64,000 nucleotides of DNA from Deltaproteobacteria bacterium (GCA_034670305.1 JAXMNT010000001.1:1-64000), one strand, 5' to 3'. Shown: positions 1,965-54,331, counted from the first letter of the stretch. Numbers and translations: made by a program. Notes: a model not told the origin generated them from the sequence alone.

Positions 1965-3016
1965 AGCATCCCTGTCTTTCTTTGTTCGAGTCCCTGCACG
2001 CACGGAGCACCGCCTCTCTCATGTCCTCTCGCACCACCCCCTTGCTCACCGGCAGCTTGCTCACGGGCATCCTGATGCTCGCGGCAGCACCCGCCCTGGC
2101 TCAGCAACCGCAGGTTCAAGCCGACGTATCAGCCGACGTGCAGGCGACCGCACCCGCTGCGTCCGCGTCCGCGAACGCGGATGGCCCAGCGCTCACCGCC
2201 CTCATCCGGACCGAGGTGCCCGATCCGCAGCTGGCCGACTTCGGTCGCGCGATCGAGCGGGTGGTGCGGGCCCAGGCAACCGACCTGGAGGTCGTCGAGT
2301 TCTCCGGCACGCCGGCCCTGGCCCTCAACGACATCCAGTTGATGGTGGGATGTCTCAGTGAGTCCCAAGAGTGTTTCGACCAGTTCGCGGAGCAGCTCCA
2401 AGTCGAAGCGCTGCTCTTGCCCACGATCGAGCGCGCCGACGACGAGTACATGATCACGGTCACCTACTACGACCGGCGCACTCGGGCGCTGCGGAGCGAA
2501 GCCCGCCGAAGCGCGGGGGGGGACGTGGAGTCCAGTCTCATCGCCGCCATCGACATGCTGCTGCGCGAACTCTTCGACCTGCCGCCCGCACCGGAAGGCA
2601 CCTACGACTTCGGACCGCAGGGCAACGGAACGGTCGACGAGGGCGGCGTCTCCGGCCTCGGCATCGCGCTCACCGCGGTCGGCGTCGCGACGTTGGCAGC
2701 CGCCATCGGTGTGGGGGTCGCGGCGAGCAACGCCAACGACGACTACCTCGCGCTTCCGACGCCGGTCACGCGCGCCGAGGTGGACGCTCTTGCGGATGTG
2801 CGTGCGTCCGCAGAGACCAAGGGCACCGCCGCGACCGCGCTGTACATCGCGGGTGGCGCGGTGGCCGCACTGGGGGTCGTGCTCCTCATCGTGCTCTCGG
2901 GCGGTGGCGACGACGACGAAGATGAAGAAGAAGAAGCTGCGCCGGAACCGGAGGTGGCGTTTGCGCCGATGGTTGGACGCGGGATGATCGGACTTTCGAT
3001 TGGAGGCACGCTGTGA
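1961..3016 (+). CDS. exported PEGA-associated-type protein with two hydrophobic helices and a C-terminal beta-hairpin
   Basis: Signal peptide (LAAAPALA/QQ), two Gly/Ala-rich hydrophobic segments, C-terminus VAFAPMVGRGMIGLSIGGTL. Alternative start at 2021. Confidence 0.75.
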   Translation: MKHPCLSLFESLHARSTASLMSSRTTPLLTGSLLTGILMLAAAPALAQQPQVQADVSADVQATAPAASASANADGPALTALIRTEVPDPQLADFGRAIERVVRAQATDLEVVEFSGTPALALNDIQLMVGCLSESQECFDQFAEQLQVEALLLPTIERADDEYMITVTYYDRRTRALRSEARRSAGGDVESSLIAAIDMLLRELFDLPPAPEGTYDFGPQGNGTVDEGGVSGLGIALTAVGVATLAAAIGVGVAASNANDDYLALPTPVTRAEVDALADVRASAETKGTAATALYIAGGAVAALGVVLLIVLSGGGDDDEDEEEEAAPEPEVAFAPMVGRGMIGLSIGGTL

Positions 3017-4848
3017 GCCGCTTGATGAAGAACTTGGCGCTCACCAGCGCACTCGTGGCCCTCGTCGCCTGTGGCGTGGACGATCACCCCGGCGAGGTCT
3101 GCAGCGACACCGAACCCTGTCCTTCGGGGCAGGAGTGTTATCGCGGCTTCTGCGTCGGTGAAGGCTGCGTGGACGACGAGACACGCGGCTGCTTCACCGG
3201 CGACCGCACCCTGATCGGCATCGGTGAGTGTCTCGAGGGCACCCAGACCTGCGTCGAGGGCGCCTTTGGCGCGTGCCTCGGGCAGGTCATTCCCCGCACC
3301 GAGGTCTGCAACACCTTGGACGACGACTGCGATGGCCGCGTCGACGAGATCAGCGGCATGGAGTGTCCGACCGGGATGCCCGGCGTCTGCGGAGTGGGCA
3401 CCTTGGCGTGCGGGGACAGTGGCGCGATCTGTACCCCGACCACCCCCGCGAGCGACGAAGTGTGCAACTCGCGCGACGACGACTGCGACACCCGCGTCGA
3501 CGAAGGCCTCGAGGGCGACGAGTGTTACCCGGCCGAGACCGAGGGCTGCACCATCGACGAAGACGGCGGCGTCCTGTGCGTGGGCGCTTGCCGTCCCGGC
3601 ACGTTCCAGTGCCAAGAAGACATGACCCGGGCGTGCGTGGGCGCGATCGTTCCAAGCGTGGACCCCGACACCTGCACGCCTCCCGGCGAGCTCGCGGCGG
3701 ACGACGACTGCGACGGGCTGATCGACGAGGACTGCGACTGCGAACTCGACGCGACCCAGAGCTGCTACGGCGGCGCCATGGGAACCGACGGAGTCGGGCC
3801 TTGTATGGCCGGCACGCAGACGTGCGAGATGGTCGATGCGAGCACCAACCGGTTCGGCCCGTGCGTCGGCGCGGTCCTCCCGACGACCGAGACGTGCTCC
3901 AACGAAGGCGTCGACAACGATTGCGATGGCATGCCGGACGATGTCGCGATGCGCGGCATGGTCTGCGTCGAAGAGGGCAATGTCGGCGCCTGCCGGAACG
4001 GGGTCCGAGACTGCGTCGGCACCATGCTCGGCTGCGTGACACCCGAGCCGACCGAGGGCGACGTCTGCAACCTGGCGGACGACGACTGCGACGGTATGAC
4101 CGACGAGGACACCGACACGAGCTCCGACGCGGCGCACTGCGGCATGTGTGGCAACGCCTGCGAGAACGAATGCTGCGATGGTGCCTGCACGGATGTTCGT
4201 TTCGACGAGATGAACTGCGGCGGCTGCGGCATGGATGGCATGGCGTGCGGCGTGGGCCAGGAGTGTTGCGGCGGCATGTGCCGGTCCCCGGCCGAGTGCG
4301 CGGGCTGCGCCGAGGACTGCAGCGCCACGGGCACCAGCTGTTGCAGCATGGCGTGCGTGGACACCATGTCCGACGAGAACAACTGCGGCATGTGCGGCAA
4401 CACCTGTGAGGCCGGCTCGTTCTGCTGCGGAGGCAGCTGTGTGCCGGAGAGCCCCGACAGCTGTGGTCAGTCCTGCACCCCATGTGGTGCAACGGACCTC
4501 TGCTGCGCCGGTGGCTGCGTTCCGCAGGGCGCGATGCACTGCAACACCTGCGGCACGGGATGCGGCGGCGATTGCTGCACCGACGCCCACACCGGCGAGT
4601 GCGTGAACCTGCAGACCGACGAGTCCAACTGCGGGGTCTGCGGGGTCGTATGCCCAGGCGACGACACATGCTCCAACGGAATGTGCTGCGGCGCGGGTCT
4701 CACCAACTGTGGCGGAACGTGCCTCAACGTGAACGGGAACGACCGGAACAACTGCGGGTCGTGCGGACGACGCTGTGCGAGCAGCGGTTGCGGGATTGCC
4801 GGGCTCGGGGCGCAGTCCTGTAGCGGAGGGGTGTGTGGCTGCGGATGA
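3013..4848 (+). CDS. Cys-rich lipoprotein with DDDCDG (MopE-like metal-binding) and Stig1-like repeats
   Basis: Lipobox LVAC, repeated CNxxDDDCDGxxDE and DxxNCGxCG. GTGA overlap with the upstream gene. Confidence 0.85.
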   Translation: MSRLMKNLALTSALVALVACGVDDHPGEVCSDTEPCPSGQECYRGFCVGEGCVDDETRGCFTGDRTLIGIGECLEGTQTCVEGAFGACLGQVIPRTEVCNTLDDDCDGRVDEISGMECPTGMPGVCGVGTLACGDSGAICTPTTPASDEVCNSRDDDCDTRVDEGLEGDECYPAETEGCTIDEDGGVLCVGACRPGTFQCQEDMTRACVGAIVPSVDPDTCTPPGELAADDDCDGLIDEDCDCELDATQSCYGGAMGTDGVGPCMAGTQTCEMVDASTNRFGPCVGAVLPTTETCSNEGVDNDCDGMPDDVAMRGMVCVEEGNVGACRNGVRDCVGTMLGCVTPEPTEGDVCNLADDDCDGMTDEDTDTSSDAAHCGMCGNACENECCDGACTDVRFDEMNCGGCGMDGMACGVGQECCGGMCRSPAECAGCAEDCSATGTSCCSMACVDTMSDENNCGMCGNTCEAGSFCCGGSCVPESPDSCGQSCTPCGATDLCCAGGCVPQGAMHCNTCGTGCGGDCCTDAHTGECVNLQTDESNCGVCGVVCPGDDTCSNGMCCGAGLTNCGGTCLNVNGNDRNNCGSCGRRCASSGCGIAGLGAQSCSGGVCGCG

Positions 4849-15263: not shown

Positions 15264-16061
15264 ATGTCCCGCGCTCGTGTCCTGTTGGCCGCTTTCCTGG
15301 TGATGGGGGCGGCGTGTGGGGACGACGACGCCACACCCGTCGACGGTGGCGGCTTCGATGCGCCCGCGATCGACACCGGCGGCGGACCGATGGTGAGCGC
15401 CCAGATCCTCGACTACCTGCGAGGCGACCGCGCCTCTTCGCTCACCGTGGAAGTCGACTACGTCGCGGGGACCGAGATCACTTCCGAGGCCCAGGCGCAC
15501 TTCGTCGCCCGGCTTGGCACGGTGCTCGACAAACCGGGCGGCGTGACCGTGCAGCTCGACGAAGTCATCCCGTCCCACGCCGACACCCCGTGGGAACTCG
15601 AGGAGCTGCGGACCCTCGCCGCGGAACGCCAGACCCTCGACGGCGGCGCGGACGGAACCGTGCTGCATCTCATGTTCGTGGACGGCCGCTTCACCATTCG
15701 CGGCGTGCTCGGTGCGGCCCTGAGCGCGACCTCGATCGTCATCTTCCGCGAGACCATCGACCAGGTCTGCGACTCGCCGAGTGTGCTGCCGCTTCAACGC
15801 GCGTCGGTGTGCGGCGCGATCGAAGCCACCGTGCTCCTCCACGAGACCGGCCACGTCATCGGCCTCGTCAACCGCGGACTCCCGATGGTGGAAGACCACG
15901 AAGACCCCGAACGCCGCGGCCACGAGGCCACCGAAGGTTGCCTGATGTACTTCGCGCTCGAGGACGCGGGCGACTTCGCCCTCGATGGCTTCCTCGGCGG
16001 CGACCCCGAGCCGATCGACTTCTGCGCCGGTTCGATGGCCGACATTCAAGCACAGCAGTGA
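15264..16061 (+). CDS. lipoprotein, putative zinc metalloprotease
   Basis: Lipobox GAAC, LLHETGHVIGL (HEXXH), later H and CLM (Met-turn-like). Alternative start at 15225. Confidence 0.8.
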   Translation: MSRARVLLAAFLVMGAACGDDDATPVDGGGFDAPAIDTGGGPMVSAQILDYLRGDRASSLTVEVDYVAGTEITSEAQAHFVARLGTVLDKPGGVTVQLDEVIPSHADTPWELEELRTLAAERQTLDGGADGTVLHLMFVDGRFTIRGVLGAALSATSIVIFRETIDQVCDSPSVLPLQRASVCGAIEATVLLHETGHVIGLVNRGLPMVEDHEDPERRGHEATEGCLMYFALEDAGDFALDGFLGGDPEPIDFCAGSMADIQAQQ

Positions 16062-16587: not shown

Positions 16588-19500
16588 CTACGACTCGAAC
16601 CAACCCGACATCGTTCGCAACCAGGTGCTCACGGGGTCTTGGCCCTCGGTGTCGTTGGCGAGGAGGCGGCGGGTCTCTTCGGAGGGGTCGGTGAGGCGGG
16701 AGAGCACTTCCAGCGCGACCGCTTGGGGCTCTGCGCTGCCTTCGGCCCGGCGGGCGGCGATGGCGCGGGCGAGCGGGGCGTTGCCCGCGGTCGGGTGGTC
16801 GCCCGCGAACCCATTGAGGGCTTCGGTGACTCGATCGGTGCGGGCTTTGTAGGTGGCGGCGCGCAGGGTCTCGGGGAGCAGCGGGGCGCCGAACGCGATC
16901 TGCTGTGTGCCGTAGCCGACCGGGAACTCGAGCCGCTCTTGGAGCGGTTCGGTGGGGAGTCCGCGGGTGAATCGCACCGGCACAATGGGAAGGTTCGCCG
17001 AGAGCGCGAGGTCGATGAAGATGCCGCTCATCTTCGTGACCGGATCGGCGGCGACCACGGAGCGGGTGCCTTCGACGTGGATGAGCAGGCTCTTGGCCGC
17101 CGTCTCGTCGCGGAGTTGCGAAATGATCGAAGGCATCGAGGCGGGATCGTTCCGGTCGAAGAACGCGATGACGCCGGGGTCGTCGACGCCTGGGTACTGA
17201 AAACACGACTCGATGAGTCGGCCGAGCCAGCTCGTGCGGTGGTCGCTCTTCGCGAGCACCAAGGTCGGGGTCTGTTGCAGCGCACCGGCGACGATCGAGA
17301 AGACCAGCGACTCGATGCCGGTCTGGTGGTTGGCGAGAAAGAGCACGCTCCGGCCGCGCAGCGCGGCGTGCTCGGCCGGTGCTTCGACCGTGACGCGCGA
17401 GAGGAAGGACTCGATGAGTCCGTAGTAGAGGTCGCCGACCAACCACGAGTCCTTGCCGAGCTTCTTCGTCCAGTAGTCTTTCACCGGCGAGAGATCGAAG
17501 CGGTCCTCGAGCCACTGCGCGCGGACCGGATCGCTGCCGCGAAGCTCCACTGAGGTGCGGGTCAGTGGAAGCACCGGTCCGTGGACTTCGACGGTCGACT
17601 CACCGTTCGGTGTGACCGTCAGCAACGACGGGTGGGTGCCGGTCATCGTGGCGACCAGGTCTTTGGCGACCACGTCTCGGGTGAGCGCATCGACGGTGGT
17701 CGCGCCGCTGCCGTACACACGCGCGACGGTCCCGGGCAGCCAGTCGCTCGCGCGCACGTCCGCGGGCGCGAGGCGGAAGCCGTCCGCGTCGGTCGCGCTG
17801 AGCGTCATGCCGGGCACGTGGACGTTGTCTCGCAGAAACGCGCGCCGGTCGTCGGGCCGTGCCATGCCGAGCGGTCCTTTGGGCAGCAGCACTTCGGTGA
17901 GGCGCATGTCGACGAGCGGGCCGGCGTCGTCCGAGAGCTGCACCCGGAACACCGCGAAGCGCGCGTCTTCGAGACCGAGCAAACGCACCTCGCAGGCGAC
18001 GTCTCCGGTTCGCGGCATCGCTCGGTAGAAGCGCGCGTCGAGCCGGTACGGGTAGGCCACGAGATCGTCGCGCACGCCCTCGTGCCAGTCCGCGAGCGCG
18101 TCGTGCGGGATCGCGTGGGTCGCGGCGTCGAGCAACCCTGGGTGCACCGCCCCGTACGGAACCTTGGCCGCGGCGGCCGAGAGTACGGCGCTGCTGCCGG
18201 CGGCGCCCGACGCGGTGCGCCCGAAGGTCAGCGAACGCAGTGCTTGGAAGGCGGGGCCGTGAAAGAGCGCGCCGCCCGCTTCGGCGTACGGAAGCGGTTG
18301 AACGGTCGTCGTCGCGAGTGGCTCGAGTGCGGGGAACGAGCCAGCGGTGTCACCGGGACGGGGTTTGGCGGCTGTGCCCCCAAGCAGCATGGCGCGTGCT
18401 GCGACTTCGAAGCGCGAGAGTTTCGGATCCCGTGCGTCGCGCCACACCAGCAAACGCACTTCGTCGCCGTCGCGTTCGACCTTCGTGCGCGCGCTGGGGT
18501 CGAGGGTGACCCAGCGCTCGACCCGGAGGTCGGACCAGCCTTGTGCTTCGACCGGCAGTTCGCCGGTCGCCTGCACGAAGCGGTCGAGCACGCTCATCAT
18601 CGGAAGCGAAGGCACGGTGAAGGTCGGGCGGTGGTCGCCGAGCCAGGGGTGCGACTGCAGTGTGTAGACGACCTCGCCGTCGGAGGCTTCCGCGCTCGGC
18701 TTCGACTTCGGGTCGACCGGCGCGGGCGCGTCGCTCCGAACCGCGATGCCGAGGTTGGATTCGTAGATGCGTTTGCCATCGACCCAGAGCGAGGACTTGC
18801 CGCGCACGATGCGGCGCTCTACGCCCGCGTCGTCGGTCGCGTCTTCGATCGAAAGAACATCGAGCGTGGTGGTGACGCACGAGTTCGCGATGACCACCTG
18901 GCCGCGGTACTTCCAGGAGTGTTCGTCGCCGAACGCGATCGGTTCGAAGCGGGGGTTCGGCAGATCGTCCGCGAGTCCGCTCTCGATGACGAACGCCTGC
19001 AGGAGCTGGATCATCGCTTCGATGCCGAGCGAGCCCGGCTGCACCGGGTCCTCGAAGAAGTGCGCTTTGAACGACCACTCGTTCGGGTCGACGTCCTTCT
19101 CGCCCCGGATGAACCCGAGCCCTTCGCTGCCGCCCTTGGGATCGAACGCGGTGAGCCGGTCGAGCATCATCAGGCTCGGTCGCGGCAGACAGAGCGGCGC
19201 GTCGAAGTAGCGGGACGCCGCGCTTCGGTCGGTGAGGTCGACGGTGAAGTCGTGCGGCGCGTTCAAGATGGCGCGCATCTCATCCGTCATCGGTAGGCCG
19301 ACCTGGTTGGCGAGCGCGGCCTCCGGGAAGAACCCGAACACGGTGTCGAGTTCGTAGACCAGCGCCTTGCCGCGTTCGGTCTCGAGCCAGACGCGGACTT
19401 CGAAGCTTTCGATGACCATGCCGCCGACCTTCGATTGCCCGACGATGGTCGAGGTGGTGCGCAAGGTGAGCGGCCGGCTCGGGTCCTCTTGTGCGAGCAG

Positions 19501-22500: not shown

Positions 22501-24567
22501 GGCGCTCAGACGCTCTGGCCAGTCGGGTGCGTCCCCTTCCATGTCGAGGGTGGCGAGCACGGGGAGTTCGTACCGGGCCGCGTCGCCGGCGCGCATCAGG
22601 ACGAGCGCTATGGCGGCGTCGCCGGTCGGAACAGAACCGTTGCCGGTGACGGCGGCGAGCGCGGCTTCGTGCACGGGCTCGACGCTCAGATCCACCGCGC
22701 CGACGATCGCCGCTTCCACGTGTCGATCGCGCAGCGCGATCCGGGCGAGCTCGAGGGCGCGGATGCCGCTCAGTTGTTCTTCCGCGACGGTGAAACTCGG
22801 TCCGTGCAGGTCGAGCGCGCTGCTGATGCGGTTGGCGGGAATGTTCGGCATCGTGCCGAGCACGCCGCTCGAGCGCAGCGTGGGCCGGAACTCGTCGCCG
22901 CTGCGTCCGGGCCACTCGGACGCGCGCCAGCGCGCGCCGTAGCGTGAGACTTCGGGGTCGCACTGCGCGCCGACGAACACTGCGGTGGCGGGGGTGATCG
23001 GCAGGCCGGCCACCGCTTCGAGCGCGGCGGCCAACATGGAGGTCTGTTGCCCGTGGCAATCCTTGAGATCGTTCGGCGGAAATCCGAGGCCCTTCATCGG
23101 CAGGACGACCGACTCCATTCGGCGCCGCGCCGCGGACCCATCGGCGGCGGTCTCGAGGAGCGCCGCGAGCGCCACCGCCGAGGTCGCGCTGCCGACGCGC
23201 GCGCCGACGCCGACGACGACAAGCGCCTCTTTGATTGCGGCCCGGGGCACCGCGACGGAAGCGCTGCGCTGGGCCAGCGCGAGATCTTCGACGACCACAT
23301 GCGCATCGTTGCCTCCGAACCCGAACGCACTGACGGCGGCCCGGCGCGGACCGGTCCAAGGTTCGGGCGCGTGCAATACCCGGCAGTCGCCGAGCGCGGC
23401 GCTCGGGCGATCGACGTGGGGCGTCGGAGGCAAGACGCCGTGGCGCAACGCTTCGACGACCTTGATCACGCCGGCCGCGCCAGCCGCCGTGATCAGGTGG
23501 CCGAGGTTCGCTTTGAGCGAGCCGACCAAGAGCGGCTGCTCCGCGGTCGGTCCGTAGACCAACGCGAGGCTCTCGAGTTCCGTCGCGTCGCCGAGCGTGG
23601 TGCCGGTCGCATGGCATTCGACGTACGAGACGTCCCGAGGGCTGCATCCGGCCTCCGCGAGCGCCGCGCGCATCGCCCGGACTTGGCCGCCATGGGCGGG
23701 CGCGAGGAACCCGCGCGCGCGTCCGTCGTTCGACAAGCCGACCCCGCGGATGACGCCGAGCACGTTGTGTCCATCGCGGAGCGCGTCGTCGAGCCGCTCG
23801 AGGACCAACATCGCGCAGCCCTCGGCCGGGACCAGACCGTCCGCCTCCGCGTGGAAGGGCCGACTGCGCCCGGTCTTGCTCATCGCGTCGAGGGCGCAGA
23901 AGCCGACGTGGATGAAGAGGTCGTCGCAGCGGTTGACCGCGCCGGCCAACATCGCGTCCATGCGGCGGTCACGGAGCGCATCGCATGCGATGCCGAGTGC
24001 GTAGAGAGACGACGCGCAGGCGGAGTCCAGCGCGAACGCCTCGGACAGGCCAAGCGCGCGGGCGAGCAAGAGCGCCGGCAGACCCGAAGAGAACCGCTCG
24101 CGCGGGTCGGGTTGGGTGCGGCCGAGCCGTTCGGCCAGTGCGCCGAGCCAGTGCTGTTCCGCGAACGCCGCATGGCCGGCGGTCGGAAACGAGAGGTTGC
24201 CGAGCACCGCGCCGATGCGGCGGGTGCTGGGGTCGAGGTGTGCGTCGGCGAGCGCGCGCTTTCCCACGTGCAGGGGCAGGGTGAACACCGGGTCCAGGCC
24301 TGCGAGTTCGCCGGCGGGGACTTCGAATCCGTGCGGGTCGAACTCGAACCCGCGCACGTAGCCGCCCCGGTCCGACCACGTTCGGTCGGCTGCGTCCTTC
24401 GCCCGCCTCGCTTCGGTGAAGGTGTGCTCGGGCCCAAGGCCCCAGCGATCTCTCGGAGCGCTCGTGACGAGGTCGCGTCCAGCGACGACGGCGTCCCAGA
24501 GCGCTTCCGGGTCGTGGGCACCCGGCAGGACGCATGCGCGTCCCACGATGGCAATCGGTTCAGTCAT
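16588..24567 (-). CDS. pfa3: PUFA synthase Pfa3 (PfaC-like): KS-CLF-linker-FabA-like DH/pseudo-DH pairs-PKS-type DH-AGPAT
   Basis: [49 protein letters not shown] and [22 protein letters not shown]; acyltransferase [11 protein letters not shown] and HVEGTRS. Confidence 0.92.
21953..22288 (+). repeat. hexamer array (GCGGRA)n-(GCCGAN/TCCGAA)n inserted in frame in pfa3
   Basis: Encodes (SA/SD)n(AP)n on the minus strand. Confidence 0.95.
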
Positions 24568-24626
24568 GGGCTCGTTCGTTGGCGAGGAGACGCGCGCACC
24601 CGCGGGCACACGCAGAGGGTCGGCTG

Positions 24627-31625: not shown

Positions 31626-31692
31626 GATGATGTTTGGTGAACGTGTCGAGCTGAACTCTGGAGGTCAGCACGGGGCGGCGCGGGCGCCGTGA

Positions 31693-37884: not shown

Positions 37885-39450
37885 ATGCGCACAAAGTCCG
37901 CCCTCTTGGTTCTCTTGCTCTCCACCGGTCTTGCATGTGGGGACGACGACGTGGGCACCGTGGACAGCGGGGCGACCGACGGCGGCGCCGGCTGCCCCGG
38001 CACGATGTGCGGTGCTGCGTGTGTCGACCTCGGCACCGACATCGACCATTGCGGAGCGTGCGGTGCCATGTGCGCGGTGGGCGAAATCTGCTCGGCGGGC
38101 AGTTGCGGGCTCGTCTGCGGCGGCGGCACCACCCGCTGTGGCGACGCGTGCGTGGTGACCACCAGCGACCCGGCCCACTGTGGCGGGTGCGACGTCGCGT
38201 GTGAGGCGGGCGAGGTGTGCACGTCCGGCGTGTGTGGTCTGAGCTGCGGCGGAGGCACCACGATGTGCGGCGACGTCTGCGTGTCGACGGCCAGCGATCC
38301 GGCCCACTGCGGTGCGTGCGAGGTGGTCTGCGAGGCGGGCGAGGTCTGTTCGGGCGGCAGCTGTGGGCTCACATGTGGAGGCGGCACCACGATGTGCGGC
38401 GACGCGTGCGTCGAGACCGACAACAACCCGGCGCACTGCGGCGGGTGCGACGTTGCCTGTGGTGCAGACGAAGTGTGTTCGGCCGGGGTGTGCGGACTGA
38501 CCTGCTTCGGCAGCTCGACGCGCTGCGGCGATCGGTGTGTGGATCTCAACAACGACCCGTTCCACTGCGGCGGCTGCGATGTGGCATGCGCGGGCGGCGA
38601 AATCTGCAACGCGAGCATTTGCGAAGTCGTGTGCTTCGGCGGCTCGACGATGTGCGGGGACGTCTGTGCAGACACGGACAGCGACCCCGCGCACTGCGGC
38701 GCCTGCGACGCGGCCTGCGGCGACGGCGAGTTCTGCGACGCCGGCACCTGTGCGCCCGAGTGTCCAGCGCCGCTGACGGTGTGCGGTGCGAGCTGCACGA
38801 ACACCGCGCACGATCCGCTGAACTGCGGTGGCTGCGACATGGCGTGCGCGCCGGGTGAAGCGTGTGATGCAGGCACCTGCGCGAGGCTCGCGGGCGGATG
38901 CGACGGATTCAACGCGCCCGACGGCACCGATGTGCCTGGCTGGACGGAGCAGACTGGGGACTTCTTCCTCGACGCGGGCCGGGTCGGGCTGACCACGACC
39001 GGCGGCGTCTACCGCAACCACATGACGATGGACGGGACGATGCACGACGACGGCTGCGCGACCATGTCCATCAGCTACGGCGCGGGCTCGGGCCTCCGCT
39101 CGATCGGCATCGTGCTTCGCTGGACGTCTCCCACCAGCTACGTCGTTGCGCTCGTTCAAGACAACTCGAACTCGGGCACGTTCGACTCGATGTGGATCTA
39201 CGAATACAGCCCCACCAGCCGCCACCTCAACGGCACGTCCGGTTTCGCGCTCGGCACCAACCCCGAGATCCGGGCGAGCGTCACCGGGACCACGGTCCTG
39301 CTCGAGGTCGACGTCGACCGCGACGGCACCTACGACGAGACGATGACCGCCACCACATCCATCACCGGAAGCGGTCAGGCCGGGCTGATGCAACTCAGCT
39401 CTGCGTCCGGCACGGCGTTGGCCGAGGAGTTCTGCCCGACCTGCTCCTGA
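37885..39450 (+). CDS. tandem paralog of the upstream Cys-rich lipoprotein with 7 repeats
   Basis: Same signal ([13 protein letters not shown]), repeats and C-terminal domain, ending EEFCPTCS. Confidence 0.9.
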
Positions 39451-42669: not shown

Positions 42670-44688
42670 ATGTTCGAGAAGTTCGCCGCACGATTCCAGA
42701 CCTACGTCCTGATTGCGCTCGTCACCTTGCTGAGCGCGGTCTTCATTCTTCAGTTCGGCGGCCCGCAGGCCGAAGGCTGCACCACGGGAGGCTCGTCGTA
42801 CGCGGCCCAGGTGGACGGCGAGGTCGTGAGCGCCGGTGAGTACCGGTCGGTCTACTACCTCCTCGGGTTCAACCGCGCGCCGGCCGAACAGCAGCGCAGC
42901 GAGAAGCTGTGGTCGGTGGTCCTCGACGGGCTGATCGAACGCAGCTTGCTCGCGAACGCCGCGCGCGAGATCGGCTACCACGTCACCGAAGACGAAGTGA
43001 TGCAGCGCCTCGCGACCGAGGGCACCATCCGTGTCTCGCTCGGCGCCTCGAGCACCTACGGCGGCGCCCGCGAAATCCAGGTCGACGGAGCGATTCAGAA
43101 CCGCGACGGCGTCTTCGATGTCGAGCGCGCGAAGTCGTTCATCCAGAACACGCTCCGCCGCAGCGTGGGCGAGTTCACCGTGGCGCAGATCGAAGAAGAG
43201 CTCGCCGAGCGCATGCGCCAGACGGTGCTCGCCACGGTCGAGGTCAGCGAACGCGAAGTCTGGGACGCGTACATCCGCGAGGCCGACCGCGCCCGCATCG
43301 AGTACGTGCGTTTCGCGCCCGCCTACTACCGCGAGACCATCGAACCGACGGATGCCGAACTCGACGCCTGGATCGAAGCCCACCCGGAAGAGGTCAACCA
43401 GGAGTACGAGCAGAACCGCCACCGGTACACCGACCTCGACGAGCAGGTCCGCGCACGGCACATCCTCATCAAGGCCGGTTCGGACGCGAGCGAAGACGAG
43501 AAGGCGGAAGCCCGTGGTCGCGCCGAGTCGCTCCTGCGTCAGGTCCGCGCCGGCGCCGACTTCGCCGCGCTCGCGACCGCCAACAGCGAAGACACCGGCA
43601 GCGCCCGCCGCGGCGGCGACCTCGGGTTCAACCCGCGCGGCCGGATGGTCGGCGCGTTCGACGAAGCGCAGTTCGGCCTCGAGGTCGGCGGCGTCTCGGA
43701 CCTGGTGGAGACCCAGTTCGGTTTCCACATCATCCGCGTCGAAGCCAAACGCGAAGGCGATGTGCCCGAAGCGGAAGCGAAGCGCGAGCTGGCCGACCGC
43801 CTCTACCGAGACGACCGCGCGGAGACCTTGGCGCGCGACGCGGCGACGGCTGCGCTCGCGGCCTGGAAGGGCGGCCTGAGCCGGGACGACCTCGATGCGT
43901 GGCTGCTGCGCCGCGAGCGCGGCGAACCCGAACCCGAGCCGGTGGATCCCGACGCGGAAGTGGCCGCGGACGCGGACCCCGATGCGGAGGTCGAAGAAGA
44001 GGAAGTCGAAGAGCGCAACCCGCTGGCGCCACGCGTCGCGGAGTCGAGCAGTTTCGGCCAGACGGACAACCCCATTCGCGGACCGTTCGACTCGGGTCCC
44101 CTCGTGCGCGACGTGTTCTCACGCAACCTCGAGGACCCCACGCCCGAAGAGCCGATCCAGCTCGGCAACGACTTCGTGATCTACACGCTCACCGAGCGCA
44201 CCGAGGCGAACCAAGAAGGCTTCACCGACGAGGTGCGTCAGCGTCTACGGATGGGCCTGTTGCGGTCGAAGCGCGCCGACGCGCTCACGAGCTACGTGCG
44301 CGACCTTCGAACCGAAGCCGAGCGCGCCGGCAAGATCCGCATCCAGACCTTTGAGCTCGAAGCCCACACAGAAGGCAACGGCGAAGTCCGCTCCATCCCC
44401 GAAGGCATCAGCTGCGGTCGGGACTGCACCGCGGCCTACGACTTCGGCACCATGGTTCAGCTGACCGCGCGCGTCGGCGACGGCGCCCGCTTCCTCGGCT
44501 GGGTCGGCGCCTGTTCCGGCTCCGACGAGACCTGCGTCGTCACCCTCGACGAAGCCCGCGAAGTCACCGCCCGTTTCCGAGGCGGCTCCGCGGCACCCGA
44601 GTCCGAGAGCGACGAAGGCGGCGACTCGAACGAAGACTCTACGGACGACGAAGAGCCCGAGCCGGAACCCGAAGAAGCCGAAGGCTGA
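42670..44688 (+). CDS. PpiD/SurA-like parvulin PPIase with an extra C-terminal InlB B-repeat-like domain
   Basis: N-terminal TM, SurA_N-like region, [29 protein letters not shown], then GNGEV.S.PEGISCG.DC...FLGW.GACSG. Confidence 0.88.
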
Positions 44689-45579: not shown

Positions 45580-46620
45580 TCACTCCAGCGTTAGGAACAG
45601 GTCGAAACGCGGCACGCTGCTGGGCATGCCGAAGAGCAGGACCGTTTCGGTCGAGTCGGATGTGTTTGCGTAGCGGGCCACACCGAAACTGGGTGGCTCA
45701 CCGATGCAGGTGAGCACCCCGTCCAGATCGGGGCAGCTCCGCGCGATGACCACGGTCGGAGGTGTGAAGGAGCCTCCCCCAAACTCGCCCGAGCGCGACT
45801 CGGCTTCGGCGCGCAGCGTCGCGCCGGCGGGTACGTCCACTTCGACGAACATGCCCTCTGTGGAGAGGCCATCGAGCGCGAACGCACGGGGGCAGTCGAT
45901 CTCCGTCGCGGACTCGACGCCCATGGAGCTGAGCGCGGTCAGGGTCGATGGAGCAGACGCGACGCGGGGGGTCGCGCAGTCCACGTACGGCTCGATCGGG
46001 TTGAACCGTACCCGTGCTTCCCGCGTGAAGGAGTCGCTGTCGCCCGCGAACACGGCGGTCACGTGGACCACGTCGTCGCCGCGGTTGAGGTGGCGTTGCC
46101 CACGCACGCCTTCTTCGAATGCGTCGCCGCAACCGCTGTCGCAGTCCGTGCGCTCACCGACGAACACACCTCGGCTCACGATGTCGACGCCTTCGCCCGG
46201 GCCCACCTCGATGTCGTAGTAGAGGACTCCGTCGATCGTTCTTGGCGAACCTGCTTCCGCGCACACGTCGGTGGCTCCATCGCGTGGGATGGTGATGACC
46301 CGGTCGACGCCGCCCAGCGAAGCGCTTGAGAGCGGCTCTGCCGCCCCGCAGGTCAGTGGTGGCCCAGCGTCCGACATTCCGGCGTCCGGTTGGCCGACGT
46401 CCGCTGCGCCAACGTCCAGCATGCCCGCGTCCAGTGATCCCCCATCGGTTGCCGCGTCGAGCCCTGCATCCTCGAGACCACTGTCGCGCGGTGTGAATCC
46501 GTCCCCACGGTGTGCATCGGCCAACGCGGCGTCGGCGGGGCCGGGCGAATCGCCGCAACCAATGAGGTTGGGCGTGGCACCCAAGGCGAGAAGAACCAGA
46601 ACCAGTCGTCGTGATTTCAT
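45580..46620 (-). CDS. hypothetical lipoprotein
   Basis: Lipobox LIGC, DAG-rich tether, Cys-containing beta domains. Confidence 0.75.
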   Translation of the reverse strand: MKSRRLVLVLLALGATPNLIGCGDSPGPADAALADAHRGDGFTPRDSGLEDAGLDAATDGGSLDAGMLDVGAADVGQPDAGMSDAGPPLTCGAAEPLSSASLGGVDRVITIPRDGATDVCAEAGSPRTIDGVLYYDIEVGPGEGVDIVSRGVFVGERTDCDSGCGDAFEEGVRGQRHLNRGDDVVHVTAVFAGDSDSFTREARVRFNPIEPYVDCATPRVASAPSTLTALSSMGVESATEIDCPRAFALDGLSTEGMFVEVDVPAGATLRAEAESRSGEFGGGSFTPPTVVIARSCPDLDGVLTCIGEPPSFGVARYANTSDSTETVLLFGMPSSVPRFDLFLTLE

Positions 46621-50818: not shown

Positions 50819-51319
50819 ATGGCGATGACGACGTACTTTCAGATGGTATCCAAGGCCGAGCTGGACGCCCTGCTCGCGGACCCCACCACCATCAACGAAC
50901 TCGACCAGCCGGAAGAGCAGTGCGCCATGACGCAGCTCCAGCAATCGCTGTGCTTCTTCTTGTGCGGCGACGCGTACCCGAACCCGACGGAACATGGCCC
51001 CCTCGCGGGCGGCCTCACCGGCTACCAGAACGTCGAGACCAACACCCTCGAGAACGGCTCGTTCGACGTGGTGCCGAAGAACAAGTGCGAAGAAGTCGCC
51101 GACGCGCTCCAAGCGGTCGATCTCGACAAGTTCAAGCGCCGGATCGCGAAGGCCGACGTCGAGGGCCTCGTCGAAGAAGAAGAACTCTACGACCTCGAAG
51201 CCTGCATCGCCGATGGCGACGATCTCGGCGAGCTCCTCAGCGACCAGATCTCGAACCTGCGCGCCTTCTACGCCGACGCCGCGGAACAGTCCCTCGCGGT
51301 CGTGCTCTACACGACGTAG
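50819..51319 (+). CDS. DUF1877 (YfbM-like) protein
   Basis: Small acidic protein, EVADAL.AVD, LRAFYADAA...LAVV C-terminus. Confidence 0.75.
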   Translation: MAMTTYFQMVSKAELDALLADPTTINELDQPEEQCAMTQLQQSLCFFLCGDAYPNPTEHGPLAGGLTGYQNVETNTLENGSFDVVPKNKCEEVADALQAVDLDKFKRRIAKADVEGLVEEEELYDLEACIADGDDLGELLSDQISNLRAFYADAAEQSLAVVLYTT

Positions 51320-51539: not shown

Positions 51540-51574
51540 CAAGGCGGGCGCGCCATTCGCGCCCGCCGCTGCGT

Positions 51575-54331
51575 TCATCGCGGGGGGCAGGTGAGGGCGC
51601 CGGTGACGAAGACGCCGTTGTTCGGGTCCGTGTAGGCGAACCTCGGCTGGCCGTCGACGCTGAACGCGCCGCTGACCCGCGCGTTGGGCGGGCTGTCCTG
51701 GGTCAGCTGCACTGCGCACGGGTTGTTGCACATCTCTTCGGCGCTCGGGAAACACTCGGAGCAGCCGGTCGTGCGCGCGGGTTCGCCGTCGTGCACGGTC
51801 GCGGTGCGCATGAAGAGGCGGGCTTCGGTCGCGGTGCTGAGGTGCGCGAAGACCACGCGCCATCCGCCCGGCTGTTCCACGACGCTGTCGCCGCGCATGG
51901 TGCCCAGCGTCAGCACACCGTCCGGCACGTACACGAGCGATGGCGCGCCGAGTAGCGGCTCGCGGTGGCTCATGTGCGTGACCGGTGCGATGGCGCGCAC
52001 GCCGGTCGGGGTGAGGACCTCGTCGCATCCGACGACGCCGCAGGTGCCGCCGCCACCGGCGCATTCGCACTCGGTGTGGAAGGTGACGCTGGTGAAGCCG
52101 ATGCGCTGACCCATCTCGCTGATCTCGCGCCAGGCGACGCCCATCACGACGCCGTCGCGGCTGGCGGGACCAACCGCCATCACGAGGTCTTCGATCTGCG
52201 CGTCCGGGAGCGGGCCGTCGCCGCCGGGCACGAGCTCGAGCGGGTCGGTGGCCAGGCACTGGCGGATCGACTCGGGCGACCGCTGGGTCTGCGTGAGGCT
52301 CTCCTTGTTGCCGGGCTCGCTGTCTGGACGTCGCCGGTCACGGGTGGTCGGGGTGCCTTCGTCGATGGTGCCGTCGCAGTCGTCGTCGATCCCGTTGCAG
52401 TCCTCGGTGGGGTTCGCGACGCACGCCTCGGTGCAGCCGTTGTCCAGGATGCCGTTGCAGTCGTCGTCCTGGCCGTTGCACAGCTCCGGCTGAGGTCCGA
52501 CGTCGCCCATGCAGATCGTGCGGCCGGCGAAACATTGCCAGGTGCCCTGCGAGCACTCTCCGGTGCTGCTGCCGCAGGCGTCGCCTTCGGTGTTCTCGTC
52601 GGTCATGCCGTCGCAGTCGTCGTCGAGGCCGTTGCACATGTCCGCGCCGGTCTCGTCGCCGGTGGTCGGCACGCAGTCGTCGGTGCAGTTGGTCTCGTCG
52701 ACGCCGCCGTCGCAGTCCTCGTCGACCCCGTTCGCGCAGAGTTCCGGCTGGGGCATGACGGCGCCGTCGCAGTACACCTCGCCGCCATCGCAGCGGAAGG
52801 TGCCGGAGACGCAGGCGCCGATTTCGATGCCGCAGCTCGTCTCGCCACACACCGAGGGTTGAGCGGCCGTGTCGGACACACACATCTGAGACTCGTCGCC
52901 GGCCGGCTCGCACATCTGCGCGGCCACGAGACGCGCGTCCGGAATCGCGAGCAGGTGGATCCGGAGTCGGCCTTCCTGCTCGGATGCGACCGCGTAGGTC
53001 TCGCCGATGGCGGCGATGCCGGGTGCGGTGGTCGAACGGGTCTGCCCGAGCACGGTGGGCTCGCCCTCACCACTCACGTTGACGAAACGGATGCGGTTGG
53101 AGGCTGCGGTCTGCAGATGGGCGCCCCAGACGAGCACGTCGTGCAGCGACTCGTCTTCTTCCGTGCCGCTGAGGTCTTCGGTGATGCAGCGGCCGAGCGC
53201 ATGCGATCCCGAGACGGCGGCCACGACCGCCTCCACGTCCACGTCGGCCTGGTCGCCCGGGAGCGCTGCGAGGGCGATGTCCTTCACGCCGCACGCATGG
53301 CTGATCGCGACCTGCGCGCTGGACGAACAACTGCCGCACAGACACTGCACGGCATTGGGGCTGTCGCACTCGCTCATCGAGTTGCAGCTCTGCGGTTCGC
53401 AGCGGCCGCCGTTGCACGTCTGGGCGTGCGGGCATTGCGCGTCGGATGCACAGGTGGACGGGACGCACGCGCCGCGGACGCAGCGTTCGCTGCCGGCGCA
53501 GGTCGGGCAGCCCTGGGTCTCGAAGGCCACCGCGAGCTGGGCCGCTTCGCAGCGGTCGGTGTCGGCGGCGGAGCATCGCCCGTTGTGGGTCAGCGAGACC
53601 CCCGCGAATGCATTCGAGCGTCCGGACGGTCCGAGGTTGAAGATCTCGGTGCCGGCTTCGTAGTGGCCGATTCGGAGCTGGCCCTGCACGCACCGGGCCG
53701 AGGAGACCGACGCGGCGATGCCGCTGTCGCCGGCCATGCCCACTTCGAGCTGCGCGAAGTTGCAGTTGCCCTCGGTGGGCACGATGCCGGTGATGGGGGT
53801 GTCCATCGCGCCGGTTCCGTCGCGGTTGATGCCCCAGCAGCCGGGCTCTTCCGTCGGCCCCGCTTCGACATCGTTGCTCTCGTTCTTCACGTAGTTGGCG
53901 CGTACTGGCGCGGGGAGTTCCCCCGACACCGGGAGGACCACGGCGAGCGCGTCCGCTTCGGTCCACAGGGCCCGCACGGAGGTCGCGCCTTCGGCGAACG
54001 TGATGCCGGTCGGTGTGCCGAGGATCAGATCGGCCCGTCGAATGTCGGACACCGGGTCCGCGCCTTCGTCGCTGTTGCCGTCGCAGTCGTTGTCGGCTCC
54101 GTCGCAGATCTCTTCGTCGCTGCGCACACACTGTCCGTCGAGGCAGCGCCAAGGCCGGCAGGCGGCCGGCAGGCCGAACGACCCGTTGAGCGCGTCGGCG
54201 CAGGCTTGTTCGAACTCACCCTGGGTGGTGCCGAACTCGTCGCAGCGGTCGAACTCGTCGAGCCCGAGGACGCTGCAGCCCGCCAGAAGCGCGAGCGCGG
54301 GAAGAACCATCGTCGTTTGCAAACGGCGCAT
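51575..54331 (-). CDS. large Cys-rich lipoprotein with DDDCDG (MopE-like) repeats
   Basis: Lipobox LAGC, multiple CNGxDDDCDG motifs. TGATG overlap with the upstream gene. Confidence 0.85.
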   Translation of the reverse strand: MRRLQTTMVLPALALLAGCSVLGLDEFDRCDEFGTTQGEFEQACADALNGSFGLPAACRPWRCLDGQCVRSDEEICDGADNDCDGNSDEGADPVSDIRRADLILGTPTGITFAEGATSVRALWTEADALAVVLPVSGELPAPVRANYVKNESNDVEAGPTEEPGCWGINRDGTGAMDTPITGIVPTEGNCNFAQLEVGMAGDSGIAASVSSARCVQGQLRIGHYEAGTEIFNLGPSGRSNAFAGVSLTHNGRCSAADTDRCEAAQLAVAFETQGCPTCAGSERCVRGACVPSTCASDAQCPHAQTCNGGRCEPQSCNSMSECDSPNAVQCLCGSCSSSAQVAISHACGVKDIALAALPGDQADVDVEAVVAAVSGSHALGRCITEDLSGTEEDESLHDVLVWGAHLQTAASNRIRFVNVSGEGEPTVLGQTRSTTAPGIAAIGETYAVASEQEGRLRIHLLAIPDARLVAAQMCEPAGDESQMCVSDTAAQPSVCGETSCGIEIGACVSGTFRCDGGEVYCDGAVMPQPELCANGVDEDCDGGVDETNCTDDCVPTTGDETGADMCNGLDDDCDGMTDENTEGDACGSSTGECSQGTWQCFAGRTICMGDVGPQPELCNGQDDDCNGILDNGCTEACVANPTEDCNGIDDDCDGTIDEGTPTTRDRRRPDSEPGNKESLTQTQRSPESIRQCLATDPLELVPGGDGPLPDAQIEDLVMAVGPASRDGVVMGVAWREISEMGQRIGFTSVTFHTECECAGGGGTCGVVGCDEVLTPTGVRAIAPVTHMSHREPLLGAPSLVYVPDGVLTLGTMRGDSVVEQPGGWRVVFAHLSTATEARLFMRTATVHDGEPARTTGCSECFPSAEEMCNNPCAVQLTQDSPPNARVSGAFSVDGQPRFAYTDPNNGVFVTGALTCPPR

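What the first reader, a model, noticed from the sequence alone, without database searches (positions are those of the whole stretch)
3013..54331. Compartment-specific lysine avoidance in exported proteins, with Met at Lys-like positions
Seen: reading the translations by eye, I find no Lys after the signal peptide in seven lipoproteins (3013, 9309, 11629, 35558, 37885, 39820, 45580; more than 3,000 residues in total). I find only 1-4 Lys in the mature 1961, 15264, 51575, TolB and GHL10 proteins. Cytoplasmic proteins of the same GC background keep Lys (Gre factor 10/163, DUF1877 6/166). Lys persists in signal n-regions (MKN, MKF, MVRK, MRTK, MKS). Met appears at polar, exposed-looking positions (GPCMAGTQTC, DDDCDGMTDE, HCGMCG, GTTMCG, PCMNGG), and AAG to ATG is a single base change. 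Inference: selection purges primary amines from the envelope, for example as self-protection from a secreted Lys-specific protease, amine oxidase or cross-linker, or from reactive aldehydes. This would be a proteome-wide immunity strategy encoded in composition rather than in a gene.
Basis: partly seen in the sequence, partly recalled or inferred. Interest (0 to 1): 0.82.

Follow-up and report, generated by a model that had tools for sequence, protein, structure and literature searches.

The report
Lysine-poor exported proteome in a myxobacterium
In this GC-rich myxobacterium and many of its relatives, proteins sent out of the cytoplasm contain about five times less lysine than proteins that stay inside and use arginine instead; base composition alone does not explain this, and its cause is still open.

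Summary
Five window lipoproteins have no Lys in 3,026 mature residues. Genome-wide, predicted exported proteins hold 0.61% Lys (n=1,317) against 3.24% in cytoplasmic proteins (n=2,469), at identical GC3. Among proteins of 200 aa or more, 22.8% of 1,069 exported and 1.9% of 1,812 cytoplasmic ones have no Lys.

The trait is shared by sampled relatives of the same family and order. It is weak or absent in low-GC Myxococcota, and absent in four GC3-matched proteobacterial replicons. So it is neither a private feature of this organism nor a generic GC effect.

Protein acidity does not explain it. Met is not a Lys surrogate.

No gene was found for six Lys-directed enzyme families. Periplasmic loops of membrane proteins and the periplasmic chaperone Skp keep Lys, which argues against a general purge of amines from the envelope.

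My best reading (confidence 0.45) is GC-driven Lys-to-Arg decay in proteins where this lineage has no need for Lys. Active selection against Lys outside the cell is not excluded.

Earlier scan notes record Lys-free exported proteins at single loci in other organisms, but nothing proteome-wide in Myxococcota.

The parts
3013..4848 (+). Cys-rich lipoprotein (Stig1-like and MopE-type motifs); 0 Lys in 592 mature residues
9309..11291 (-). Lipoprotein with EGF-like domains; 0 Lys in 639 mature residues
11629..13392 (+). Lipoprotein with bacterial Ig-like (Big_6, Big_13) domains; 0 Lys in 569 mature residues
35558..37777 (+). Lipoprotein with 12 matched Stig1-like Cys-repeat stretches; 0 Lys in 722 mature residues; repeat position TT[M/R/L/A]CG
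37885..39450 (+). Lipoprotein with 7 matched Stig1-like Cys-repeat stretches; 0 Lys in 504 mature residues
39820..40518 (-).
45580..46620 (-). Lipoprotein (MKSRRLVLVLLALGATPNLIGC...); its only Lys is residue 2, in the signal n-region; no Pfam family
1961..3016 (+). Exported protein; Lys only at residues 2 and 287; no Pfam family
15264..16061 (+). Lipoprotein; one Lys (residue 90) in 265 residues
51575..54331 (-). Cys-rich lipoprotein with a MopE-type metal-binding motif; 3 Lys and 45 Arg in 900 mature residues
34145..35422 (-). TolB; 5 Lys (1 in the signal; K116 and K191 invariant and K381 nearly invariant among 23 orthologues) and 41 Arg; E. coli TolB has 14 Lys and 20 Arg
59499..61124 (-). 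GHL10-family lipoprotein; 3 Lys (1 before the lipobox) and 39 Arg
42670..44688 (+). PpiD/SurA-like periplasmic rotamase with an N-terminal anchor; 10 Lys and 66 Arg in 672 residues
16065..16556 (+).
50819..51319 (+).

Best explanation
This is a lineage-wide compositional state of the extracytoplasmic proteome, not a dedicated immunity device. In this GC-rich (68%) Polyangiales/Sandaracinaceae-like myxobacterium, soluble exported proteins and lipoproteins place Arg, or no basic residue, where other bacteria place Lys. Lys survives mainly where it is functionally fixed, such as the invariant TolB lysines and Skp.

The most likely mechanism is as follows. Strong GC-biased substitution pressure constantly converts AAR (Lys) codons. 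In cytoplasmic proteins, Lys-specific roles hold Lys at about 3%. In exported proteins of this lineage Lys has no advantage over Arg, so it has decayed almost to its mutational-equilibrium frequency and now turns over at that low level.

Shown here: the depletion, its compartment specificity, its independence from GC3, conservation and net charge, its phylogenetic spread, and the fate of Lys columns. Inferred: that the driver is near-neutral decay rather than harm done by Lys. Why GC-matched Proteobacteria keep Lys outside the cytoplasm remains unexplained.
For: 1. Lys in lipoproteins (0.43%) is only 1.6 times the frequency expected from third-position base frequencies alone (0.27%). Asn, Ile, Phe, Tyr and Met stay 7 to 13 times above their expectation.
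2. Basic positions that only need a charge are Arg even on the cytoplasmic side. MYXO-CTERM-like tails hold 7 Lys and 142 Arg. That share (0.047) is close to the share in mature exported proteins (0.06-0.08).
3. There is no Lys-specific difference between periplasmic and cytoplasmic short or medium loops of 286 polytopic membrane proteins. Long domains differ only modestly (0.157 vs 0.218).
4. Skp, a genuine periplasmic protein, keeps 7.6% Lys. TolB keeps its invariant lysines.
5. Between this genome and Lys-poor relatives, Lys counts in exported orthologues are balanced (276 vs 243). Residual lysines are no better conserved than cytoplasmic ones (36-41% vs 46-49%). This looks like turnover at equilibrium.
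6. Lys content rises with conservation in both compartments.
7. Within Myxococcota the exported/cytoplasmic Lys ratio falls with GC. All 9 samples with GC of 0.66 or more have a ratio of 0.64 or less. Five of the 6 samples below GC 0.61 have 0.71-0.94; the sixth, G055, has 0.46.
8. Arg is the commonest replacement of relative-Lys columns (20-22%). Exported homologues shared with Proteobacteria hold twice as much Arg in this genome (141 vs 72 over 4 pairs).
9. None of six Lys-directed enzyme families searched was found in this 96%-complete genome.
Against: 1. Four proteobacterial replicons with the same GC3 (0.81-0.88) show no depletion. Their ratios are 1.0-1.7, and exported K/(K+R) is 0.29-0.48 against 0.20-0.25 in the cytoplasm. 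GC pressure plus exchangeability therefore cannot be the whole story; something differs between the lineages.
2. Other amino acids with AT-rich codons are not depleted in exported proteins. Asn is even higher, and the conservative Ile-to-Val shift is not accelerated.
3. At equal conservation, exported proteins still hold 2 to 5 times less Lys than cytoplasmic ones. Conserved orthologues such as TolB are also depleted.
4. Two lower-GC genomes (G012 at GC 0.61 and G102 at 0.62) are as depleted as this one. G051 and G029 at similar GC are not.
5. The neutral expectation from third positions is crude. The tail baseline is small (149 basic residues) and may carry its own constraint.
6. Compartment classes are heuristic. 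Samples of relatives are 100-200 kb each, and kin are not independent.
Confidence: 0.45

Rival explanations
1. Lys is actively selected against outside the cytoplasm, or outside the outer membrane, in this clade. Its primary amine would be a liability there. It could be a target of a Lys-preferring secreted protease. It could be a nucleophile in adventitious cross-linking, for example by L,D-transpeptidases, sorting transpeptidases or matrix enzymes. It could also be a site of reaction with secreted electrophilic metabolites.
For: - GC3-matched Proteobacteria keep Lys outside the cytoplasm.
- The effect is specific to Lys among AT-codon residues.
- It holds at matched conservation and at every net charge, including basic exported proteins (K/(K+R) 0.061 at 13% Arg).
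- It is strongest in Cys-rich, probably surface or matrix proteins (0.14% Lys).
- Long periplasmic domains of membrane proteins are somewhat Lys-poorer than long cytoplasmic ones (0.157 vs 0.218, p=1.6e-11).
- YkuD-type transpeptidase genes are more numerous in the Lys-poor genomes (2-13) than in the Lys-keeping ones (0-3).
Against: - No match to six Lys-directed enzyme families.
- The best S1 protease resembles classical trypsins, which cut after both Lys and Arg (recalled). Two other S1 candidates have no solved relative at E<=1e-8, so nothing Lys-C-like was recognised.
- Periplasmic loops keep Lys, and Skp keeps 7.6% Lys.
- Exported Lys is not below the baseline set by cytoplasm-facing Arg-rich tails.
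- Residual lysines turn over rather than being restricted to conserved sites.
Confidence: 0.3
2. The Lys-poor, acidic exported proteome is a physico-chemical adaptation of proteins that face the medium. The model is either salt adaptation in an organism that keeps salt out of its cytoplasm, or alkaline adaptation. Both are known to lower Lys and to favour Arg and acidic residues.
For: - Exported proteins are strongly acidic: net charge is -8.7 per 100 residues in lipoproteins against -2.2 in cytoplasmic proteins, and Asp is 9.3% against 6.7%.
- G102 combines 0.6% exported Lys with 13.4% Asp in lipoproteins.
- Passages of a 2026 review (PMC13696103) describe the removal of surface Lys as stabilising at high salt, citing Tadeo 2009.
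Against: - Acidity and Lys loss are uncoupled. G037 has 0.66% exported Lys with a net charge of only -2.8.
- G055, G051 and G071 have very acidic exported proteins (-6 to -11) but keep K/(K+R) at 0.39-0.44.
- Within this genome, K/(K+R) is 0.05-0.09 in every net-charge bin.
- The trait spans many genera and several families.
- No habitat data were used, so salinity and pH themselves were not tested.
Confidence: 0.1
3. The pattern is an artefact. It could come from my gene calls or signal-peptide heuristic. It could also reflect a few expanded Lys-free repeat families rather than the compartment.
For: - The classifier is home-made.
- 13-16% of genes are called lipoproteins.
- Cys-rich repeat proteins are the most extreme class.
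Against: - GC3 is equal in all classes.
- The window proteins have Pfam domains.
- Exported proteins with under 1% Cys still hold only 0.99% Lys, despite contamination by cytoplasmic false positives.
- Orthologue pairs show the loss directly, and TolB shows it.
- The same pipeline gives ratios of about 1 or more in Proteobacteria and in low-GC Myxococcota.
- Misclassification works against the effect.
Confidence: 0.03

Closest known systems
Lysine deserts (Kampmeyer et al. 2023, PMC10169902, seen as a search listing and abstract; Szulc et al. 2023, PMC10665810, passages read; 2026 review PMC13696103, passages read)
   Same: Long stretches without any Lys occur here too: 500-720 residues in the window lipoproteins. 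Arg is kept. In both cases there is debate over whether GC bias or selection is the cause.
   Different: Described deserts are tied to the cytoplasm and to ubiquitylation or pupylation. Here the Lys-free proteins are exported, and the effect covers a whole compartment of the proteome. In the 2026 review the words 'secreted', 'periplasm' and 'extracellular' do not occur. In Szulc et al., 'secreted' and 'extracellular' each occur once, in an unrelated context, and 'signal peptide' does not occur.
GC-driven Lys-to-Arg shift of bacterial proteomes (Lightfield et al. 2011, PMC3053387, seen as a search listing and abstract; Sueoka and Lobry, recalled)
   Same: Lys falls and Arg is preferred as GC rises. 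Cytoplasmic K/(K+R) goes from 0.42 at GC 0.48 to about 0.2-0.27 at GC 0.7 in my samples.
   Different: That rule says genomes of similar GC have similar amino-acid usage across phyla. Here, exported proteins of GC3-matched Myxococcota and Proteobacteria differ roughly four-fold in K/(K+R) (0.06-0.16 against 0.29-0.48), while cytoplasmic proteins agree.
Acidic, Lys-poor proteins of halophiles, and Lys-to-Arg changes in secreted enzymes of alkaliphiles (Fukuchi 2003 and Tadeo 2009, as cited in PMC13696103; the alkaliphile work is recalled)
   Same: There is an excess of Asp and Glu, Lys is lost more than Arg, and the change is confined to proteins that face the medium.
   Different: Lys loss here is independent of net charge, both within the genome and between genomes. 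Nothing on the salt or pH preference of the organism is known.
Lys-poor catalytic chains of AB toxins, and Arg/Lys bias by toxin domain (London and Luongo 1989, seen only as a reference in PMC13696103)
   Same: The choice of Arg over Lys is dictated by the compartment.
   Different: In the toxins, the purpose is escape from ubiquitylation inside a host cell, and it concerns single proteins. Here it concerns about 1,300 exported proteins of a free-living bacterium.

Membership tests
Lysine desert (continuous Lys-free region of at least 150 residues or at least 50% of the protein) | Length of the Lys-free stretch | tested here: met
   Five window lipoproteins are Lys-free over their whole mature length of 504-722 residues. 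22.8% of 1,069 exported proteins of 200 aa or more have no Lys at all.
Lysine desert (continuous Lys-free region of at least 150 residues or at least 50% of the protein) | Link to a Lys-directed tagging system (ubiquitin or Pup) | not tested
   The proteins are exported, so a cytoplasmic tagging system is an unlikely driver. I did not search the genome for Pup or PafA.
Generic GC-driven Lys-to-Arg shift | Same amino-acid usage in genomes of the same GC, whatever the phylum | tested here: not met
   Exported/cytoplasmic Lys ratio is 0.19-0.25 in G000, G013, G022, G036 and G037. It is 1.0-1.7 in the Ralstonia, Azospirillum, Methylorubrum and Paracoccus replicons at GC3 0.81-0.88.
Generic GC-driven Lys-to-Arg shift | Equal effect on all genes with the same GC3 | tested here: not met
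   GC3 is 0.857 in cytoplasmic and 0.858 in exported genes, yet Lys is 3.24% against 0.61%.
Halophile-type acidic exported proteome | Excess of acidic residues in exported proteins | tested here: met
   Net charge is -8.7 per 100 residues in lipoproteins, -4.5 in Sec proteins and -2.2 in cytoplasmic proteins.
Halophile-type acidic exported proteome | Lys loss coupled to acidification | tested here: not met
   K/(K+R) is 0.05-0.09 in all net-charge bins, including basic proteins. G037 is Lys-poor but only mildly acidic, while G055, G051 and G071 are acidic but keep Lys.
Halophile-type acidic exported proteome | Saline or alkaline habitat | not testable with these tools
   No habitat or physiology data were used. 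Relatives are known to me only as record titles of metagenome-assembled genomes.
Self-protection against the organism's own Lys-directed secreted enzyme | A gene for a Lys-specific protease, oxidase or cross-linker | tested here: not met
   There were 0 matches in the own genome (96% complete) to PF01186, PF14521, PF17990, PF09017, PF01364 and PF01179. For four of these six (PF01186, PF14521, PF09017, PF01364) the 14 control genomes were also silent, so sensitivity is unproven. There were 18 PF00089 matches. The best resembles classical trypsins. Two others have no solved relative at E<=1e-8, and six of the nine scanned have no NCBIfam name, so their specificity is unknown.
Self-protection against the organism's own Lys-directed secreted enzyme | Lys avoided in every envelope-exposed polypeptide | tested here: not met
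   Periplasmic short and medium loops have the same K/(K+R) as cytoplasmic loops. Skp has 7.6% Lys.

The most novel reading that the evidence does not exclude
Across a large clade of GC-rich Myxococcota, Lys is actively excluded from soluble exported, surface and matrix proteins, because its side-chain amine is a liability outside the cytoplasm in these social, heavily secreting bacteria. Candidate liabilities are adventitious transpeptidation or cross-linking, a Lys-preferring protease of still unknown family, and reaction with secreted electrophiles. If so, amino-acid composition itself serves as a proteome-wide protective trait. That trait would have evolved, or been kept, in several families and been lost in the small, lower-GC lineages.
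Probability: 0.28. Interest if true: 0.8.

Novelty: new variant of a known kind. Interest (0 to 1): 0.55.

Why it matters
- It would be a clean natural case in which subcellular location, not base composition, sets the use of one amino acid across more than a thousand proteins. The contrast with GC-matched Proteobacteria is built in. The question of whether lysine deserts are selected or mutational becomes testable outside the ubiquitin and Pup context.
- It has practical consequences. Amine-reactive surface labelling and cross-linking (NHS esters), Lys-C digestion and Lys-based conjugation will largely miss the exported proteome of these bacteria.
- Lys content could serve as an extra feature when predicting localisation in these genomes.
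- If the cause is an amine-directed hazard, it points to envelope chemistry in myxobacteria that has not been described.

Tried and rejected
- **Met as a Lys surrogate:** rejected.
- **Differences in gene-level GC:** rejected.
- **Relaxed constraint alone:** rejected as sufficient.
- **Acidity alone:** rejected.
- **Lipoprotein sorting by a Lys at +2, used to separate inner- from outer-membrane lipoproteins** (idea from PMC3222651, passages read): only 6 of 904 lipoproteins have Lys at +2, so the split was uninformative.
- **Candidate enzyme families:** six families gave no match.
- **S1 proteases:**
  - One is trypsin-like.
  - One is DegP-like by PDB, and two others are DegP/HtrA-like by NCBIfam.
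  - Two have no solved relative at E<=1e-8.
  - Six of the nine scanned have no NCBIfam name.
- **Naming cultured relatives to bring in habitat:** all 80 loci returned were metagenome-assembled genomes.
- **Actinobacterial controls:** the accession I recalled for SCP1 is not in the collection. The 50-kb Rhodococcus sample gave only 2 exported proteins and is uninformative.
- **A wider sample of the phylum:** The spread outside the 19 sampled genomes therefore remains open.
- **Literature:** eight searches and passages of four papers turned up no description of compartment-specific Lys depletion in Myxococcota. Subscription journals and supplements were not searched.
- **Earlier scan notes:** there are notes on Lys-free exported proteins at single loci in other organisms, but none on this trait.

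Full report
**What was checked first**

The window has 68-69% GC, and long ORFs overlap on both strands. I therefore laid the whole genome: 7.93 Mb in 105 contigs, 68.1% GC, with the window at C1:1-64000.

I wrote my own gene finder. It scores codon log-odds against the shifted and antisense frames and selects genes greedily. It called 5,955 genes covering 88% of the DNA.

I also wrote a heuristic classifier. It requires a positive n-region, an uncharged hydrophobic core, and either a lipobox or an AXA-type cleavage site, and it counts further hydrophobic segments. Nothing in it looks at Lys in the mature part.

These are home-made tools, and they make errors. The Lys-rich members of the 'exported' class are almost all cytoplasmic enzymes with Rossmann-type N-termini. 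Misclassification therefore dilutes the effect described below rather than creating it.

- Five window lipoproteins (3013, 9309, 11629, 35558, 37885) have no Lys in 3,026 mature residues.
- The 45580 protein has Lys only at residue 2. The 39820 protein has none in its called 232 residues.
- The 1961, 15264, 51575, TolB and GHL10 proteins have 1-4 mature Lys.
- The two cytoplasmic comparators have 10 of 163 and 6 of 166.
- At the cytoplasmic rate, 3,026 residues would hold about 98 Lys.
- The lipoproteins are real proteins. They carry EGF-like, bacterial Ig-like, Stig1-like Cys-repeat, MopE-type and GHL10 domains.

**It is genome-wide**

First pass:

| Class | Genes | Lys | Met | Arg | Asp |
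|---|---|---|---|---|---|
| Cytoplasmic | 2,555 | 3.3% | 2.0% | 8.5% | 6.7% |
| Sec-type exported | 747 | 1.1% | 1.6% | 8.8% | 7.6% |
| Lipoproteins | 931 | 0.4% | 1.6% | 6.6% | 9.3% |

With a stricter signal rule and bootstrap over proteins:

| Class | n | Lys | 95% interval | GC3 |
|---|---|---|---|---|
| Cytoplasmic | 2,469 | 3.24% | 3.15-3.34 | 0.857 |
| Exported | 1,317 | 0.61% | 0.56-0.65 | 0.858 |

- Among proteins of 200 aa or more, 22.8% of 1,069 exported and 1.9% of 1,812 cytoplasmic ones have no Lys.
- The share of AAA among Lys codons is the same in all classes (0.24-0.26).
- Only Lys is affected. Phe, Tyr, Met, Ile and Asn together make 12.6% of cytoplasmic proteins, 12.5% of Sec-type proteins and 12.2% of lipoproteins.

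**What it is not**

*Not a difference in gene-level base composition.* GC3 is equal in all classes.

*Not relaxed constraint alone.* In orthologue pairs with seven relatives, binned by identity, exported proteins hold 0.64-2.08% Lys. Cytoplasmic ones hold 2.60-4.25% in the same bins.

*Not acidity alone.* K/(K+R) is 0.05-0.09 in exported proteins of every net-charge bin, including 31 basic ones with 13% Arg. It is 0.20-0.39 in cytoplasmic proteins.

*Not Met replacing Lys.*
- Columns holding Lys in twelve relatives are Met in this genome in 5 of 540 cases for exported proteins and 30 of 4,490 for cytoplasmic ones.
- Met in this genome's exported proteins aligns with Leu (27%), Met (22%) and Val; it aligns with Lys in 1.5%.
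Met content is 1.55-1.69% in exported proteins whatever their Cys content.

*What did replace Lys.* In exported orthologues compared with Lys-keeping relatives, 402 Lys became 120 over 32 pairs. In cytoplasmic orthologues, 2,557 became 2,317 over 145 pairs. The exported Lys columns are now Arg (20%), Ala, Lys (10%), Glu, Gln and Asp.

**Who shares it**

TolB was found in all 41 genomes searched among relatives.
- Of the 30 loci examined (one is the window's own), most orthologues from the same family have 4-7 Lys. These include four from loci of only 61-64% GC.
- Seven of the 30 have 14-20 Lys. E. coli TolB has 14 Lys and 20 Arg.
- All 80 loci returned by the search for related loci are metagenome-assembled genomes. 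Their titles call them Polyangiaceae, Sandaracinaceae, Polyangiales, Myxococcales or Myxococcota, or give more general labels.

I ran the same pipeline on 100-200 kb from each of 18 other Myxococcota genomes and on replicons of named bacteria. The table gives the exported/cytoplasmic Lys ratio.

| Group | Genomes and ratios |
|---|---|
| Depleted (0.19-0.32) | G000; G012, G013, G022 (same family); G036, G037 (same order); G102 (same phylum only, GC 0.62) |
| Intermediate (0.46-0.64) | G055, G136, G007, G115, G085, G025 |
| Little or none (0.71-0.94) | G071, G051, G050, G125, G029, G095 (GC 0.48-0.62) |
| Proteobacterial replicons, GC3 0.81-0.88 | Ralstonia megaplasmid 1.01; Azospirillum pAB510a 1.33; Methylorubrum megaplasmid 1.53; Paracoccus plasmid 1.74 (only 5 exported proteins) |
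| Other | E. coli, 50 kb: 0.92 |

- Cytoplasmic Lys is alike in GC-rich Myxococcota and Proteobacteria, at about 2-3.5%.
- In 40 cytoplasmic homologue pairs with the Proteobacteria, this genome has more Lys (3.68% against 2.12%). In 4 exported pairs it has less (0.80% against 2.71%) and twice the Arg. Four pairs is a small sample.

As an independent replicate I used the TolB neighbourhoods of related genomes, taking the 63 of 80 loci that had GC of 0.60 or more and at least 8 kb.
- In the 30 loci of GC 0.70 or more, pooled Lys is 2.44% in cytoplasmic proteins and 0.68% in exported ones.
- The 0.65-0.70 bin is heterogeneous (3.18% against 2.13%).
- In 24 of the 40 loci with enough residues, exported Lys is less than half of cytoplasmic Lys.

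So the trait is old, widespread in GC-rich members of the phylum, variable even within the family, and not a general property of GC-rich Gram-negative bacteria. Kin are not independent and the samples are small.

**Is Lys harmful outside, or merely unnecessary?**

*Evidence for 'unnecessary':*
- Third-position base frequencies alone predict 0.27% Lys, and lipoproteins have 0.43%. Asn, Ile, Phe, Tyr and Met stay 7 to 13 times above their predictions.
- The cytoplasm-facing basic tails behind MYXO-CTERM-like anchors hold 7 Lys and 142 Arg. Positions that only need a positive charge are therefore Arg on either side of the membrane.
- In 286 polytopic membrane proteins oriented by the positive-inside rule, K/(K+R) is 0.230 inside and 0.199 outside for short loops. 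It is 0.255 and 0.238 for medium loops. Neither difference is significant (a first version is).
- Only domains longer than 60 residues differ (0.218 against 0.157, p=1.6e-11).
- The one clearly genuine Lys-rich exported protein is the periplasmic chaperone Skp/OmpH, with 7.6% Lys.
- TolB keeps its invariant lysines K116 and K191 and the nearly invariant K381.
- Between this genome and Lys-poor relatives, Lys counts in exported orthologues are balanced (276 against 243), and the lysines turn over.

*Evidence for 'harmful':*
- The contrast with Proteobacteria.
- The restriction of the effect to Lys.
- Its persistence at equal conservation.
- Its extreme in Cys-rich, probably surface or matrix proteins (0.14% Lys).

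- The genome, 96% complete, has no match to lysyl oxidase, Aspzincin M35, LodA, microbial transglutaminase, gingipain C25 or copper amine oxidase. For four of these six families the control genomes were silent too, so sensitivity is unproven.
- Of the 18 trypsin-family matches, I extracted 10 and examined them.
- The best is a lipoprotein resembling classical trypsins. These cut after both Lys and Arg (recalled).
- One is DegP-like by PDB, and two others are DegP/HtrA-like by NCBIfam.
- Two have no solved relative at E<=1e-8. Six of the nine scanned have no NCBIfam name, so their specificity is unknown.

*Signal n-regions.* Lys in signal n-regions is real: K/(K+R) is 0.165 there against 0.076 in mature parts. 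Part of it is the general enrichment of Lys near N-termini, which cytoplasmic proteins show too (0.374 against 0.274).

**Verdict**

Compartment-specific Lys scarcity is real and is not a by-product of GC alone. There is no evidence for a purge of amines from the whole envelope, for Met as a substitute, or for a Lys-directed enzyme, and the trait is not private to this organism.

- **Best reading (0.45):** GC-driven decay of Lys to Arg, or to no basic residue, in a class of proteins for which this lineage has no Lys-specific need.
- **Main rival (0.30):** active avoidance of Lys outside the cell.
- **Salt or alkaline adaptation (0.10):** disfavoured, because acidity and Lys loss are uncoupled.
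- **Artefact (0.03).**

**Literature**

I found no description of this trait in eight literature searches.
- In a 2026 review of lysine deserts, the words 'secreted', 'periplasm' and 'extracellular' do not occur.
- In Szulc et al. 2023, 'secreted' and 'extracellular' each occur once, in an unrelated context.

These searches cover open-access full text only. Earlier notes of this scan record Lys-free exported proteins at single loci in other organisms, but nothing proteome-wide in Myxococcota.

Noticed in passing
window 16588-33279 (-): Three genes look like a PUFA-synthase-type cluster. One encodes 2,332 aa with KS, AT, four ACP, KR and DH domains. One encodes 2,659 aa with KS, two FabA-like dehydratases and a C-terminal acyltransferase domain. 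The third is an NMO-type enoyl reductase with a FabD-like insert. The comparison with myxobacterial PUFA synthases is recalled, not tested.
   Followed up: partly
whole genome G000: 13-16% of all called genes (779-931 of about 5,940) are predicted lipoproteins. 411 of 904 have Gly at +2 and 215 have Asp at +3, giving a typical start of C-G-D-D-D. Only 6 have Lys at +2.
   Followed up: partly
whole genome G000, C-termini of 41 exported proteins: These proteins carry MYXO-CTERM-like sorting tags: a Gly/Cys motif, a hydrophobic helix and a poly-Arg tail. The tails hold 142 Arg and 7 Lys.
   Followed up: no
G000:C70:29321-30817 (-), locus L262: A predicted lipoprotein with a full-length trypsin domain. 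Its best matches among solved structures are animal trypsins (E about 1e-43). It has 3 Lys in 485 mature residues.
   Followed up: partly
G000:C4:85496-86062 (-), locus L283: The Skp/OmpH periplasmic chaperone keeps 7.6% Lys. It is the only clearly genuine Lys-rich exported protein I saw in the list.
   Followed up: yes
G102:C3:150001-250000 (loci L257-L261): A genome related only at phylum level, with 62% GC, has an extremely acidic exported proteome. Lipoproteins have 13.4% Asp and a net charge of -15 per 100 residues. Exported Lys is 0.6%.
   Followed up: no
window 35558-37777 (+) and 37885-39450 (+): Two tandem lipoproteins are built of near-identical Cys repeats of about 60 residues ([33 protein letters not shown]...). 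They match the plant Stig1 family model; 12 and 7 stretches are matched.
   Followed up: no
19 Myxococcota genomes: YkuD-type L,D-transpeptidase genes number 2-13 in the seven Lys-poor genomes and 0-3 in the seven Lys-keeping ones.
   Followed up: partly
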